From a virus (taxonomy: Duplodnaviria > Heunggongvirae > Uroviricota > Caudoviricetes): DNA of 6,679 nucleotides. The stretch spans positions 1 to 6,679 of the IMG/VR virus record IMGVR_UViG_3300029006_000021; one strand, 5' to 3'. Positions 1 through 1,903 of the stretch are shown one piece after another. The notes below the pieces were generated by a model. It saw only the letters and a program-made list of their open reading frames with translations. It was not told the DNA's origin and did no database searches. Every line of letters starts with the position of its first letter. Within the stretch, counting starts at the first letter, position 1. Position numbers and translations under genes: made by a program.

Positions 1-31
1 GGGCGATTAACATCGCCTTTTGCTGCTTCAT
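1..31 (-). CDS. hokD: Hok/Gef-family small membrane toxin, N-terminal 10 codons only; gene continues beyond the left edge of the window
   Basis: Minus-strand ATG at 29-31 preceded by SD-like AAGGAGA about 9 nt upstream; visible translation MKQQKAMLIA matches the N-terminus of HokD/RelF as I remember it (HokC/Gef would read MKQHKAMIVA). Only 10 residues are in the window, so the call is tentative. Confidence 0.45.
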   Translation of the reverse strand, partial: MKQQKAMLIA

Positions 32-152
32 AGCCTGCTTCTCCTTGCCTTTCGGCACGTAAGAGGCTAACCTACATGTGCAAAGCATGAAATTGGCCTC
101 AGATTAATGTTAAGCGTCTTGCCGGACGCGTAATGTTAACTGGGGCTTTTCT

Positions 153-188
153 CTGTCTGCCTTACGGTGGCATGCCCGAGGCAGACAG
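153..188. other. 10-bp inverted repeat (CTGTCTGCCT / AGGCAGACAG) with 16-nt spacer containing the palindrome GGCATGCC, in the leader upstream of the hok-like gene
   Basis: Read directly. Not followed by a U-tract on either strand, so not a typical terminator; could be part of hok-type mRNA folding or a protein-binding site. Confidence 0.35.
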
Positions 189-276
189 CCTCAAGCACCC
201 GCAGCAATTCTACTTAACTCTCGCTTTACCGCAAACCGTTTTTACCCGATATGGGAATCCCCATATCGCAATGAAA

Positions 277-381
277 TCAGTTTCCCATCCGATCCATCAA
301 AAACACAACCAGGCAGTAAACGCCCACAACAGAAATAACGGCCAGCGCGCCTTCCATTGCCAGTGAAAGATCATCCGACAT
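277..381 (-). CDS. Tiny hydrophobic peptide, 34 aa, predicted single transmembrane helix (MSDDLSLAMEGALAVISVVGVYCLVVFLMDRMGN); function unknown
   Basis: Not in the ORF track (too short). Minus-strand ATG at 379-381 preceded by near-consensus SD AAGGAGGG 4-5 nt upstream; TGA stop at 277-279; uncharged 19-residue core flanked by charged ends. Same strand and operon as the upstream genes. Confidence 0.5.
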   Translation of the reverse strand: MSDDLSLAMEGALAVISVVGVYCLVVFLMDRMGN

Positions 382-416
382 ATTCCCTCCTTTGGTGTGA
401 ATCCCGGCGAACGTTT

Positions 417-500
417 TTACTCCCACCGACAAATAACATATACTAAAAAAGCGATAGCCATAGCAACGCCTGTAATTGCAAAGGCTTCAGGCCAGTTCAT
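417..500 (-). CDS. Tiny hydrophobic peptide, 27 aa, predicted single transmembrane helix (MNWPEAFAITGVAMAIAFLVYVICRWE); function unknown
   Basis: Not in the ORF track. Minus-strand ATG at 498-500 overlaps the TGA stop of the upstream 101-aa ORF (ATGA overlap, translational coupling); SD-like GGAGGA upstream; TAA stop at 417-419. Confidence 0.5.
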   Translation of the reverse strand: MNWPEAFAITGVAMAIAFLVYVICRWE

Positions 501-802
501 CGTAAAACATCCTCCACACTTATCAGTCCATTTCGCTTCAGATAGTCCATCGCCTTATCCGGTAATTTGCAGTCCAACTTCGCTTTCTTCAGATGCCTGG
601 CTAACTGCTTTACCAGCATGGTTAACTCGTAGACCGAACGTTGATACTCCACTGGTTTGTATTCATGCAATTTACCAACTGGCTCTGCTTCCAGCAATGC
701 CAGTGCAATCCGTGCCAGTTCCATTTGTTCGCCACGGGTAAGTCCGTTATCAAGCGGATTTTTAATGAATAATTCGATACGTTCTTTGGTAATAGAATTC
801 AT
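497..802 (-). CDS. Hypothetical phage protein, 101 aa
   Basis: ORF track; ATG at 800-802 with SD-like AAGGTGA about 8 nt upstream; starts 1 nt after the stop of the upstream gene; same-strand operon context. No family recognised. Confidence 0.7.
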   Translation of the reverse strand: MNSITKERIELFIKNPLDNGLTRGEQMELARIALALLEAEPVGKLHEYKPVEYQRSVYELTMLVKQLARHLKKAKLDCKLPDKAMDYLKRNGLISVEDVLR

Positions 803-1299: not shown

Positions 1300-1593
1300 C
1301 TACGCCATTACCTTGTTTCGCAACCAGACACAAACCGGGCCATCTTCAGTATCATGAATGGAGCCAATAAACCAGCCTTCTCCCTCTGGTCGTTCCGGTT
1401 CCCAGGCGGAAATACCGGAGTCATCTGCATCTGAATTAAAATCATCTTCATCCATACTGCAAATAGTCCACTGAAGATTATTTACCTTCATCCAGGCGTC
1501 AAATTCCTCGGTGGAAATATATTCACGACCTGCGCAAAACTTTTCATACTCCGGATGTGTCCAGCAGCCATATTCATCACGTTCTACCTGCAT
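1300..1593 (-). CDS. Strongly acidic, Trp-rich small protein, 97 aa (about 23 Asp/Glu vs 8 Arg/Lys); function unknown
   Basis: Track ORF 1300..1677 trimmed to the ATG at 1591-1593, which lies 4 nt after the stop of the upstream DUF4406-like gene; the longer start would overlap that gene by about 80 nt. Composition counted from the translation. The SD is weak, so the start is uncertain. Confidence 0.6.
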   Translation of the reverse strand: MQVERDEYGCWTHPEYEKFCAGREYISTEEFDAWMKVNNLQWTICSMDEDDFNSDADDSGISAWEPERPEGEGWFIGSIHDTEDGPVCVWLRNKVMA

Positions 1594-1597
1594 TTCT

Positions 1598-1903
1598 TTA
1601 ATTTCGCTCACTTGTTGCCTCCTGGAAAATAACCGCATGTCCCAGTTTCTCCGCCAGTGCCAGCTCAGCCCTTGCACCTGCCGACTGCTGCCAGCCTTTC
1701 AGCATGTAAACCGCATCCACGCAACGGAGCATTGCCATGCAAATATCCATGTAGTGTGGCTGAGTCAGCCCGTCCGGAAGTACTGCCGGATTTAAAACGG
1801 TATGCCCTTCCCGTTTCAGCACCTCTTCCGCTTTGTGAAATGCCTCGCGGTTAAAATTTTCATATCCCGTCATCGGACCGGCGATATAAACCCTCACCCT
1901 CAC
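1598..1903 (-). CDS. DUF4406-like protein (nucleoside 2-deoxyribosyltransferase-like fold), 101 aa
   Basis: ORF track; N-terminal VYIAGPM motif typical of this family; GTG start at 1901-1903 with consensus SD AGGAGG 8 nt upstream, overlapping the TGA stop of the upstream gene (GTGA). Confidence 0.8.
   Translation of the reverse strand: MRVRVYIAGPMTGYENFNREAFHKAEEVLKREGHTVLNPAVLPDGLTQPHYMDICMAMLRCVDAVYMLKGWQQSAGARAELALAEKLGHAVIFQEATSERN

What the first reader, a model, noticed from the sequence alone, without database searches (positions are those of the whole stretch)
277..500. Two unannotated, translationally coupled tiny single-helix membrane peptides directly upstream of a hok-like toxin gene
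Two ORFs of 27 and 34 codons sit at the distal end of the early operon. Both have strong Shine-Dalgarno sequences (GGAGGA; AAGGAGGG), and the first overlaps the preceding stop in an ATGA junction. Each encodes one hydrophobic helix with charged ends, the architecture of type I toxins, holin-like or membrane-regulatory micro-proteins. They fall below standard ORF-calling thresholds and replace the relBE genes that precede hokD in the K-12 Qin prophage. Candidates include new small membrane toxins, superinfection-exclusion peptides, or modulators of the adjacent Hok-type toxin.
Basis: partly seen in the sequence, partly recalled or inferred. Interest (0 to 1): 0.75.

Follow-up and report, generated by a model that had tools for sequence, protein, structure and literature searches.

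The report
Two real prophage membrane micro-genes
Two tiny genes (27 and 34 codons) just upstream of a hok/sok toxin locus in a lambdoid E. coli prophage are real, conserved genes for single-helix membrane peptides: one is a widespread but almost never annotated phage family, the other is already annotated and known to be translated, and neither has a known function.

Summary
Both ORFs exist as described, on the minus strand: ORF1 at 500-417 (27 aa) and ORF2 at 381-277 (34 aa). Both are under purifying selection in their own frame only (dN/dS 0.29 and 0.24).

ORF1 belongs to a family, M-x-W-P-E-A-F...C-R-W-G, almost always 27 codons. I found over 545 copies in IMG/VR, including 933W, VT2-Sakai, BP-4795, P1-like SJ46 and Klebsiella phages. 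Its start always reads ATGA and overlaps or abuts the stop of at least six unrelated upstream genes. Homology between contexts begins at its Shine-Dalgarno sequence and ends at its stop codon. It is missing from every phage and RefSeq record I opened.

ORF2 is not new. RefSeq annotates it (ECs_5710 in Sakai), and a published RIBOseq study reports it as translated in uninduced O157:H7 Sakai (XECs145). It sits at a fixed distance upstream of the hok promoter. ORF1 does not depend on hok: 43% of its contexts lack one.

Nothing supports a type I toxin role. I read both as accessory single-span inner-membrane microproteins. A link between ORF2 and Hok rests on synteny only.

The parts
497..802 (-). 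Upstream 101-aa early gene whose TGA stop overlaps the ORF1 start. Its C-terminal half resembles phrog_660 and its N-terminal half resembles phrog_60.
   Evidence: The A30 orthologue is labelled a truncated DUF551 pseudogene.
510..515 (-). GGAGGA, the Shine-Dalgarno sequence for ORF1, inside the 3' end of the upstream gene.
   Evidence: An SD-like motif is present in 103 of 108 ORF1 contexts.
417..500 (-). ORF1: a 27-codon gene, MNWPEAFAITGVAMAIAFLVYVICRWE. It is a single-TM microprotein of the M-x-W-P-E-A-F...C-R-W-G family, with an ATGA start/stop overlap.
   Evidence: dN/dS is 0.29 in its own frame (p=1.9e-15). 46 of 50 distinct nucleotide variants are exactly 27 codons.
385..392 (-). AAGGAGGG, the Shine-Dalgarno sequence for ORF2.
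   Evidence: It is conserved in all MSDD-type copies printed.
277..381 (-). ORF2: a 34-codon gene, MSDDLSLAMEGALAVISVVGVYCLVVFLMDRMGN. It is a single-TM microprotein, equal to the RefSeq hypothetical protein family (ECs_5710 in Sakai) and to XECs145.
   Evidence: dN/dS is 0.24 (p=5.9e-8).
248..267 (.). 20-nt palindrome GATATGGGGATTCCCATATC between ORF2 and the hok promoter. It is a perfect palindrome in O157 and O111 relatives. No T-run follows it.
   Evidence: It is absent from Tritos-type and 933W-type arrangements.
229..247 (-). GGGTAAAAACGGTTTGCGG. This repeats the ORF1 3' end and its downstream sequence (compare window 424-409), and it aligns with the ORF1-to-hok junction of 933W. It contains the putative hok -35 (TTGCGG, 234-229).
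   Evidence: The promoter assignment is by eye and by position.
207..212 (-). Putative hok promoter -10 (TAGAAT), inside the invariant AGTTAAGTAGAAT block.
   Evidence: It lies at a fixed 59-65 nt after the ORF2 stop in 183 of 188 copies.
26..200 (-). hok mRNA leader and sok region.
   Evidence: Rfam RF01794, 117 bits, E=8e-28.
1..31 (-). 5' end of the hokD-type toxin gene (MKQQKAMLIA...), cut by the window edge.

Best explanation
The interval holds two independent, real protein-coding micro-genes in the early-right (nin-like) region of a Qin/Rac-type lambdoid prophage.

ORF1 (27 aa) is a mobile gene module made of its SD, its ATGA start and 27 codons. Mosaic recombination has attached it to the 3' end of many different early genes. 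It is translated by termination-reinitiation coupling with whichever gene precedes it.

ORF2 (34 aa) is a separate gene with its own SD. It travels with the hok/sok locus at a fixed distance upstream of the hok promoter, and it is translated even in uninduced lysogens.

Each product is a single-span inner-membrane microprotein. I infer that each acts as an accessory factor that packs its helix against a larger membrane protein or against itself, in the manner of MgrB, AcrZ, MgtR or KdpF-type small proteins, and not as a Hok-like poison. ORF2's partner or pathway is plausibly connected with Hok. ORF1's is not.

Shown: coding status, modularity, coupling geometry, hok linkage of ORF2, and translation of ORF2.
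Inferred: membrane insertion, topology, and mode of action.

Rough confidences: real genes 0.9; TM microproteins 0.8; non-toxic accessory or regulatory role 0.5.
For: ORF1:
- tblastn finds it in 99 phage records and in more than 545 IMG/VR stretches.
- Among 236 copies there are 50 distinct nucleotide sequences, and 46 of those are exactly 27 codons.
- Third-codon-position entropy is 22.6, against 10.9 and 6.3 for positions 1 and 2. Pairwise pN/pS is 0.34.
- Counts along a minimum spanning tree give 89.5 synonymous and 78.5 nonsynonymous changes, dN/dS 0.29, p=1.9e-15. The other two sense frames give 1.5 and 2.1.
- All 132 distinct contexts begin with ATGA at or overlapping the upstream stop. 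103 of 108 have an SD.
- Similarity between contexts starts at the SD or ATG and ends at the stop codon, while both flanks are unrelated.
- Conserved small residues (A6, G11, A13, A15, A17, C24) and Trp at both ends (W3, W26) fit a packed TM helix.

ORF2:
- 199 copies, with variable sites by codon position of 11, 6 and 17. Synonymous variation is abundant and replacements are conservative. dN/dS is 0.24, p=5.9e-8.
- The hok promoter block lies 59-65 nt downstream in 183 of 188 copies.
- Tritos-type relatives keep the frame, the stop position and the place upstream of hok, without ORF1.
- RIBOseq in Sakai for XECs145 gives, in LB, translatome RPKM 346, RCV 4.35 and coverage 0.99. The authors predicted it to be inner membrane with one TM (PMC5597208).
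Against: - No experiment shows that either peptide accumulates, inserts in the membrane, or has a phenotype.
- ORF1 was excluded by design from the RIBOseq study, which took only ORFs of at least 30 aa.
- The XECs145 interval starts inside the ORF1 3' end, and Sakai carries several near-identical copies, so footprints are not uniquely assigned.
- The ORF1 substitution comparison between the window and O157 alone is mostly nonsynonymous, 4 of 5 changes. One common variant carries Asp in mid-helix (A17D).
- Topology signals are weak.
- The Tritos-type similarity to ORF2 is E=0.3 on its own. The Tritos versus HannyBb comparison shows 2 synonymous and 5 nonsynonymous changes.
- No binding partner is identified.
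Confidence: 0.6

Rival explanations
1. ORF2, and possibly ORF1, is a protein-level modulator of the adjacent Hok toxin. It would be a small helix that binds Hok in the inner membrane and either blunts it in lysogens or tunes Hok-assisted lysis after induction.
For: ORF2 is followed by the hok promoter at a fixed offset in 183 of 188 copies. Its distant relatives in Tritos, Evi, mEp460 and HannyBb also sit directly upstream of hok, in an otherwise different neighbourhood. ORF2 is translated in uninduced lysogens. The hokW-sokW locus of Sp5 is a functional toxin-antitoxin system that aids phage release (PMC8621323).
Against: The evidence is synteny only. About 1,469 places in E. coli genomes carry the ORF1/ORF2 block, against 11,923 places with the hok region, so Hok loci work without it. 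57 of 132 ORF1 contexts have no hok. No interaction test was possible.
Confidence: 0.2
2. The peptides are superinfection-exclusion, defence, or host-takeover factors. They would act on a host inner-membrane protein (a transporter, a DNA-entry route, a protease or a sensor), as small moron-type prophage genes do.
For: Both lie in accessory early regions, namely the nin-like region, the exo-xis side next to xis/int, and a P1-like plasmid prophage. ORF2 is expressed in the lysogen. Both have single-TM architecture with conserved helix faces.
Against: There is no match to any PADLOC defence model or PHROG functional family. No target is known. ORF1 is coupled to early lytic-operon genes and is not placed behind an obvious lysogenic promoter.
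Confidence: 0.15
3. They are additional type I-like membrane toxins, kept silent by an unseen antisense RNA.
For: They are small, very hydrophobic peptides next to a type I toxin locus. Two promoter-like matches lie on the opposite strand at 357-384 and 416-444.
Against: Those matches equal the shuffled expectation (2 found, mean 2.0). They fall in codons that differ in other ORF1 subtypes. Both ORFs have strong, unsequestered SDs. ORF1 is coupled to an ordinary gene. ORF2 shows RCV 4.35 in normally growing cells. Genomes carry up to 5 copies. Rfam finds nothing beyond sok. There is no Hok/Gef or other toxin family match.
Confidence: 0.08
4. Only the act of translation matters, for example to keep ribosomes on the early transcript up to the hok promoter, and the peptide sequences are irrelevant. 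Alternatively, the ORFs are chance ORFs in a conserved non-coding hok upstream element.
For: ORFs of this length are frequent by chance. ORF1 is always positioned for reinitiation.
Against: The synonymous excess is frame-specific in both ORFs. ORF1 keeps its length and residues across unrelated flanks. The antisense ORF that mirrors the signal varies from 50 to 260 aa with unconserved ends.
Confidence: 0.05

Closest known systems
RefSeq hypothetical protein family WP_001278450.1 / WP_001278454.1 / WP_077779993.1 (ECs_5710 of O157:H7 Sakai prophage Sp6; XECs145 of Hücker et al. 2017)
   Same: ORF2 is this protein. The exact window sequence is on 172 public contigs. It is 34 aa and sits in the same position, between a DUF551-type gene and hokD. 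RIBOseq translation is reported for it.
   Different: Nothing differs. The published ORF model carries a 20-codon 5' extension that ignores the AAGGAGGG-ATG start. Its function has not been studied.
Small regulatory inner-membrane proteins of enterobacteria (MgrB, AcrZ, MgtR, MgtS, KdpF, PmrR, SgrT). This is a functional class, not a homologous family (own knowledge).
   Same: Both peptides are under 50 aa, have a single hydrophobic helix, have conserved small-residue helix faces, and contain no enzymatic domain.
   Different: There is no sequence similarity. No partner is known. The genes are phage-borne. ORF1 is shorter than nearly all characterised examples.
Hok/Gef type I toxins (PF01848) and other type I membrane toxins (Ldr, Ibs, TisB, ShoB, DinQ, ZorO)
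   Same: They are small, hydrophobic and membrane-directed, and they are genetically adjacent to hok/sok.
   Different: There is no family match. There is no mok-like leader ORF, no conserved antisense promoter and no sequestered SD. ORF2 is translated in healthy cells.
Accessory genes of the lambdoid exo-xis and nin regions (Ea22, DUF551-type proteins, orf60a/61/63/73)
   Same: They share the genomic neighbourhood and the mosaic, module-wise inheritance. ORF1 usually follows a DUF551-type gene.
   Different: Those are soluble proteins of 60-200 aa. ORF1 is a 27-aa TM peptide and is missing from the annotations of 933W, VT2-Sakai and BP-4795.

Membership tests
Hok/Gef toxins (PF01848) | Sequence match to the Hok/Gef profile: about 50 aa, with an N-terminal TM and a periplasmic Cys-containing tail. 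| tested here: not met
   hmmscan against Pfam at E<=1 gives no Hok_Gef hit for ORF1 or ORF2. They are 27 and 34 aa with no extramembrane tail.
Hok/Gef toxins (PF01848) | Overlapping mok leader ORF, sok antisense RNA and a folded mRNA leader. | tested here: not met
   The Rfam sok match covers only 26-200, downstream of both ORFs. Both ORFs have direct SDs.
Type I toxin-antitoxin systems (general) | A cis- or trans-encoded antisense RNA with its own conserved promoter. | tested here: not met
   Opposite-strand promoter-like matches equal the shuffled expectation, and their sequence is not kept in other ORF1 subtypes. No transcript data were examined.
Type I toxin-antitoxin systems (general) | Translation kept off in growing cells. 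| tested here: not met
   For ORF2, XECs145 has RCV 4.35 and coverage 0.99 in LB. No data exist for ORF1.
Type I toxin-antitoxin systems (general) | Toxicity or membrane depolarisation on expression. | not testable with these tools
   This needs inducible expression with growth and membrane-potential readouts.
ORF2 = RefSeq hypothetical protein family (ECs_5710 / WP_001278450.1) | Near-identical 34-aa sequence in the same locus. | tested here: met
   The exact sequence is in the public collection. Relatives are 74-88% identical and nothing more distant was found among 1.84 billion representatives. The locus is the same in A30, O111, O157 and Sakai.
ORF1 family (M-x-W-P-[ED]-A-F ... C-R-W-G, defined here) | 22-29 codons (mostly 27), with the conserved motif, an SD, and a start overlapping or abutting the upstream stop. 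| tested here: met
   The window copy has all of these features. There are 27 peptide variants and 132 contexts, all starting ATGA.
Small regulatory single-TM microproteins (functional class) | Under 50 aa, one TM helix, sequence under purifying selection. | tested here: met
   Hydrophobic 19-residue windows score 2.45 and 2.58. dN/dS is 0.29 and 0.24.
Small regulatory single-TM microproteins (functional class) | Physical binding to, and modulation of, a larger membrane protein. | not testable with these tools
   No multimer prediction or interaction data were available. AF2 of a natural ORF1-ORF2 fusion shows only two helices (pTM 0.41).
Holins / lysis-cassette peptides | Location in the late lysis cassette next to endolysin and spanin genes. 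| tested here: not met
   The genes lie in the early-right region between the replication genes and Q, or next to xis/int.

The most novel reading that the evidence does not exclude
ORF2, perhaps together with ORF1, is a peptide partner of Hok. It would add protein-level control in the membrane to a classical RNA-controlled type I toxin-antitoxin locus, for example by holding Hok inactive in lysogens or by timing Hok-assisted lysis after induction. Separately, ORF1 would be a portable 27-residue helix that phages append to early genes to target a conserved host membrane protein.
Probability: 0.12. Interest if true: 0.7.

Novelty: new member of a known kind. Interest (0 to 1): 0.45.

Why it matters
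ORF1 is a conserved gene that is missing from the annotations of some of the most studied Shiga-toxin phages (933W, VT2-Sakai/Sp5, BP-4795). It occurs in at least 14% of complete E. coli genomes, which is a lower bound because the search detects only close DNA variants. At 84 nt it lies below the 90-nt minimum gene length that I recall for Prodigal (own knowledge, not checked here). In line with this, it enters protein databases almost only when a mutation lengthens it or a submitter's pipeline happens to call it.

It therefore marks a blind spot for deletion studies around hokW and the exo-xis region. It is also a compact candidate for work on phage microproteins. ORF2 offers a ready test of whether hok loci have protein accessories. 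Neither result changes any established concept yet.

Tried and rejected
- The search for homologous proteins and the search for related loci refuse single peptides shorter than 40 aa. I worked around this with alignments and with an ORF1 concatemer.
- The one-genome-per-species scan gave only 2 hits. One is a 431-bp Xanthomonas pisi contig carrying 933W-type sequence, probably contamination. The other is a 15-residue chance-like match. The family therefore looks confined to enterobacterial phages.
- tblastn of the SJ46-type peptide against plasmids gave nothing.
- Pfam, NCBIfam, PHROG and PADLOC gave only sub-threshold noise: PTR2 at 18 bits, phrog_38566 at E=0.004, and Cmr5 at E=0.02.
- The promoter and terminator scan of 1-1100 was at chance level and gave no minus-strand promoter for ORF1 or ORF2.
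- AF2 of the natural ORF1-ORF2 fusion P0033 gave two helices with pLDDT 71 and pTM 0.41. This was not informative, so I ran no fold search.
- I considered the antisense ORF (window 397-741, + strand, 114 aa). It has no stops across ORF1 and a similarly low pN/pS of 0.39. I rejected it because its length and ends vary from 50 to 260 aa across contexts.
- I considered a DUF551-ORF1 fusion in Shigella because of shared cluster membership. I rejected it after reading the sequences, which end at ...PPQEVNQ with no ORF1 part.
- Full-text and supplement searches for the peptide strings found only XECs145.
- I first believed ORF1 is never annotated. One search corrected this: a few GenBank submissions (for example ETJ68712.1, AOM45384.1, ASL59396.1)-aa forms as hypothetical proteins.

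Full report
**What is in the window**

The finding's ORFs lie on the minus strand.
- ORF1 runs 500-417 and encodes MNWPEAFAITGVAMAIAFLVYVICRWE. Its ATG overlaps the TGA of a 101-aa upstream ORF (802-497) as ATGA, and GGAGGA lies at 515-510.
- After a 35-nt spacer containing AAGGAGGG (392-385), ORF2 runs 381-277 and encodes MSDDLSLAMEGALAVISVVGVYCLVVFLMDRMGN.
- Downstream come a 20-nt palindrome (267-248), a putative hok promoter (TTGCGG at 234-229, TAGAAT at 212-207, assigned by eye), and the hok leader/sok region (Rfam RF01794, 117 bits, 26-200).
- The hokD-type gene starts at position 31 and is cut by the window edge.

**Genomic context**

Pfam hits on the larger ORFs, together with annotated relatives, show a Qin/Rac-type lambdoid prophage. 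The order is: a ydfA-like DUF1391 gene, the repressor, YdaS/YdaT-like genes, an O-like HTH protein, a DnaC-like ATPase, DUF1627, DUF4406, an Ea22-like gene, the 101-aa gene, ORF1, ORF2, hok/sok.

In full-length relatives the same strand continues to DUF968, RusA and Q. The locus is therefore mid-operon (nin-like), not the distal end.

**ORF1 is a real gene and a widespread family**

tblastn of the 27-aa peptide found 99 phage records. I read copies in 933W, Stx2a_WGPS2, BP-4795 and P1-like SJ46. Each has an ORF of 24-27 codons with the pattern M-x-W-P-(E/D)-A-F...C-R-W-G. Each starts on top of the upstream stop, and none is annotated.

In the loci I held there were 236 copies, 50 distinct nucleotide sequences and 27 distinct peptides. 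46 of the 50 nucleotide variants are exactly 27 codons.

The substitution pattern is that of a coding sequence:
- Entropy is concentrated at third codon positions, 22.6 against 10.9 and 6.3.
- Pairwise pN/pS is 0.34 in the ORF frame, against 0.84 and 2.2 in the other sense frames.
- Counts along a minimum spanning tree give 89.5 synonymous and 78.5 nonsynonymous changes, dN/dS 0.29, p=1.9e-15. There is no synonymous excess in the other frames.

The antisense frame that shares wobble positions mirrors this signal (0.39, no stops). However, its ORF varies from 50 to 260 aa with unconserved ends, so I treat it as an artefact.

**ORF1 is a mobile module**

Across 132 distinct contexts the gene always begins ATGA, and 103 of 108 have an SD-like motif. 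At least six unrelated upstream 3' ends occur. These are DUF551 '...PPQEV..', the window type '...SVEDVLR', 933W L0139, the SJ46 type, and others.

Similarity between contexts begins at the SD or ATG and stops at the stop codon. The O157 relative of the window shows this most clearly. Its upstream gene is unrelated, and homology begins at the ATGA.

Downstream neighbours also vary:
- ORF2 followed by hok: 58 contexts.
- The hok promoter directly: 17.
- A DUF4222-like gene next to xis/int: 36.
- Others, including terminator-like hairpins: 21.

ORF1 is therefore not tied to hok.

A Klebsiella phage has a 22-aa relative, MDWPTAFCIVGCAFAIAWLFRS, with a TAATG overlap. A scan of one genome per species found essentially nothing, so the family appears confined to enterobacterial phages.

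**Annotation status of ORF1**

ORF1 is absent from every RefSeq and phage record I opened. A search of 5.8 billion protein clusters with an ORF1 concatemer returned 40 clusters. All 40 are at least 29 aa long. The 20 I read are lengthened forms: stop-loss, frameshift, internal duplication, 5' extension or contig-edge calls.

Exact look-ups corrected my first impression that ORF1 is never annotated. A few GenBank submissions do-aa forms as hypothetical proteins, for example ETJ68712.1, AOM45384.1 and ASL59396.1. The window's own variant is not in the collection.

At 84 nt the gene is below the 90-nt minimum I recall for Prodigal. That figure is from my own knowledge and was not checked here.

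**ORF2 is real but already known**

PGAP annotates ORF2 in relatives as a 105-nt hypothetical protein. The exact window sequence is on 172 contigs. In Sakai prophage Sp6 it is ECs_5710.

Hücker et al. 2017 (PMC5597208) list it as the novel translated gene XECs145. Their model has a 20-codon 5' extension. Their values are as follows:

| Condition | Transcriptome RPKM | Translatome RPKM | RCV | Coverage |
|---|---|---|---|---|
| LB | 79.1 | 346.1 | 4.35 | 0.99 |
| BHI | 121.3 | 150.1 | 1.14 | 0.84 |
| BHI stress | 73.3 | 1.1 | 0.01 | 0.37 |

They predicted it to be inner membrane with one TM. They took only ORFs of at least 30 aa, so ORF1 was outside their scope.

In my sample of 199 copies, variable sites by codon position are 11, 6 and 17. 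Many changes are synonymous (for example four Arg31 codons) and replacements are conservative. dN/dS is 0.24, p=5.9e-8. phmmer against 1.84 billion representatives found six hits, all 74-88% identical, so ORF2 is a narrow orphan family.

**ORF2 travels with hok**

The hok promoter block AGTTAAGTAGAAT lies 59-65 nt after the ORF2 stop in 183 of 188 copies. A hok start follows within 330 nt in 178 of 188.

Weak tblastn hits (E=0.3) in phages Tritos, Evi, mEp460_ev081 and HannyBb are ORFs of about 30 codons: (M)VLVLKCALAIAAVMAIYCLAVVLMDRLSD, with an AGGAGG SD and a GTG start. They sit directly upstream of hokD, without ORF1, and with a divergent gene as upstream neighbour. The DNA aligns with ORF2 without gaps through the helix-coding part, and the stop falls at the same column.

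This deeper homology is plausible but weakly supported, because the Tritos versus HannyBb comparison shows 2 synonymous and 5 nonsynonymous changes. Conversely, only about 1,469 of about 11,923 hok-region places in E. coli genomes carry the ORF1/ORF2 block. Hok loci do not need it.

**Architecture**

After the ORF2 stop, the window type has an extra segment of about 34 nt that is absent from the Tritos type. It contains the palindrome followed by GGGTAAAAACGGTTTGCGG. That string repeats the ORF1 3' end and its downstream sequence, and it aligns with the ORF1-to-hok junction of 933W.

The simplest reading is modular shuffling among three units: ORF1, ORF2 and hok/sok.

**Mechanism**

Shown: both ORFs are coding. 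ORF1 is positioned for termination-reinitiation with whatever gene precedes it. ORF2 has its own SD and is translated in uninduced lysogens.

Inferred: each peptide is a single-span inner-membrane helix, with 19-residue hydrophobic windows scoring 2.45 and 2.58. ORF1 has Trp at both ends (W3, W26). It also has two conserved faces rich in small residues: A6/A13/A17/C24 and G11/A15/S22. That pattern is typical of helix-helix packing (own knowledge). ORF2 has an acidic N-tail (D3, D4, E10) and Arg31 near the C-terminus. By analogy with the Pf3 coat protein (own knowledge), this suggests an N-out/C-in topology.

I therefore favour accessory or regulatory microproteins that bind a larger membrane protein or self-associate. 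The toxin reading is disfavoured for these reasons:
- There is no family match.
- The SDs are strong and exposed.
- ORF1 is coupled to an ordinary gene.
- ORF2 has high ribosome density in healthy cells.
- Antisense promoter-like matches are at chance level and are not conserved.
- Genomes carry up to five copies.

A role for ORF2 in Hok control remains possible, on synteny alone. Takada et al. 2021 (PMC8621323) show that hokW-sokW is a functional toxin-antitoxin system that aids Sp5 release. They do not mention the upstream small ORF.

**Verdict**

ORF2 is already annotated and has been published as translated. ORF1 is a conserved, widespread, nearly always unannotated phage microprotein family. 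It is a new member of a known kind, namely small single-TM phage or bacterial microproteins. Function is unknown for both, so interest is moderate.

Noticed in passing
window 248-267 (either strand): A 20-nt palindrome, GATATGGGGATTCCCATATC, lies between the ORF2 stop and the hok promoter. It is a perfect palindrome (GATATGGGAATTCCCATATC) in O157 and O111 relatives. No T-run follows, so it is not a classical terminator. It could be a protein-binding site or an RNA hairpin. It is absent from Tritos-type and 933W-type loci.
   Followed up: partly
window 229-247 versus 409-424 (minus strand): The sequence GGGTAAAAACGGTTTGCGG after the palindrome repeats the ORF1 3' end and its downstream sequence (TGGGAGTAAAAACGTT). 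It also matches the ORF1-to-hok junction of 933W. It looks like a scar of modular recombination or insertion of the ORF2 cassette. The repeat finder did not report it because it is short and imperfect.
   Followed up: partly
P0044, P0047, P0016 (database proteins related to ORF1): Some ORF1 relatives carry expansions of the Ala-Met dipeptide inside the helix (IAMAMAMAMAMAVAL...) or an internal duplication of the first 15 residues. These are slippage-type length variants of the TM segment, and the added length is what brought them over the gene-calling threshold.
   Followed up: no
P0033, P0055 (database proteins): These are natural 74-aa ORF1-ORF2 fusions, apparently created by a frame-changing indel near the ORF1 stop (judged from the protein sequences). 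ORF2 is in the +1 frame relative to ORF1.
   Followed up: partly
L327 1198-1309 (Escherichia phage vB_EcoS-689R5, ON470583.1): The ORF1 homologue has a 1-nt deletion in codon 2. The record annotates the resulting out-of-frame 36-aa ORF (URC08898.1) as a hypothetical protein. This is probably a sequencing error or a pseudogene, together with a spurious gene call.
   Followed up: yes
L325 1408-1593 (Escherichia phage HannyBb, PP925841.1): A hypothetical protein is annotated on the strand opposite to the ORF2-like ORF that sits upstream of mokW/hok. It may be a mis-call of the mirror frame.
   Followed up: no
L088 (Xanthomonas pisi DSM 18956 contig NZ_JPLE01000323.1, 431 bp): This tiny contig carries a 933W-type ORF1 followed by the hok promoter and leader. 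It is almost certainly E. coli phage contamination in a Xanthomonas assembly.
   Followed up: partly
window 497-802 (minus strand): The 101-aa gene upstream of ORF1 looks chimeric. Residues 1-52 match phrog_60 and phrog_3323, and residues 52-101 match the C-terminus of phrog_660. The near-identical A30 locus has only its first half annotated, as a truncated DUF551 pseudogene. Pfam finds no DUF551 in it.
   Followed up: partly
clusters 3 and 6 of the protein collection: The 90%-identity clusters that hold the ORF1 and ORF2 peptides also contain unrelated proteins: 121-aa DUF551 proteins, and a 789-aa xanthine dehydrogenase subunit from Stappia. The DUF551 sequences I read have no ORF1 part. This appears to be a clustering artefact for very short sequences.
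   Followed up: partly
window 1300-1903 (minus strand): The listed 125-aa (1300-1677, GTG) and 101-aa DUF4406 (1598-1903) ORFs overlap by 80 nt. The true start of the downstream gene is probably later. Several genes in this operon join by 1-4 nt start/stop overlaps, as ORF1 does.
   Followed up: no
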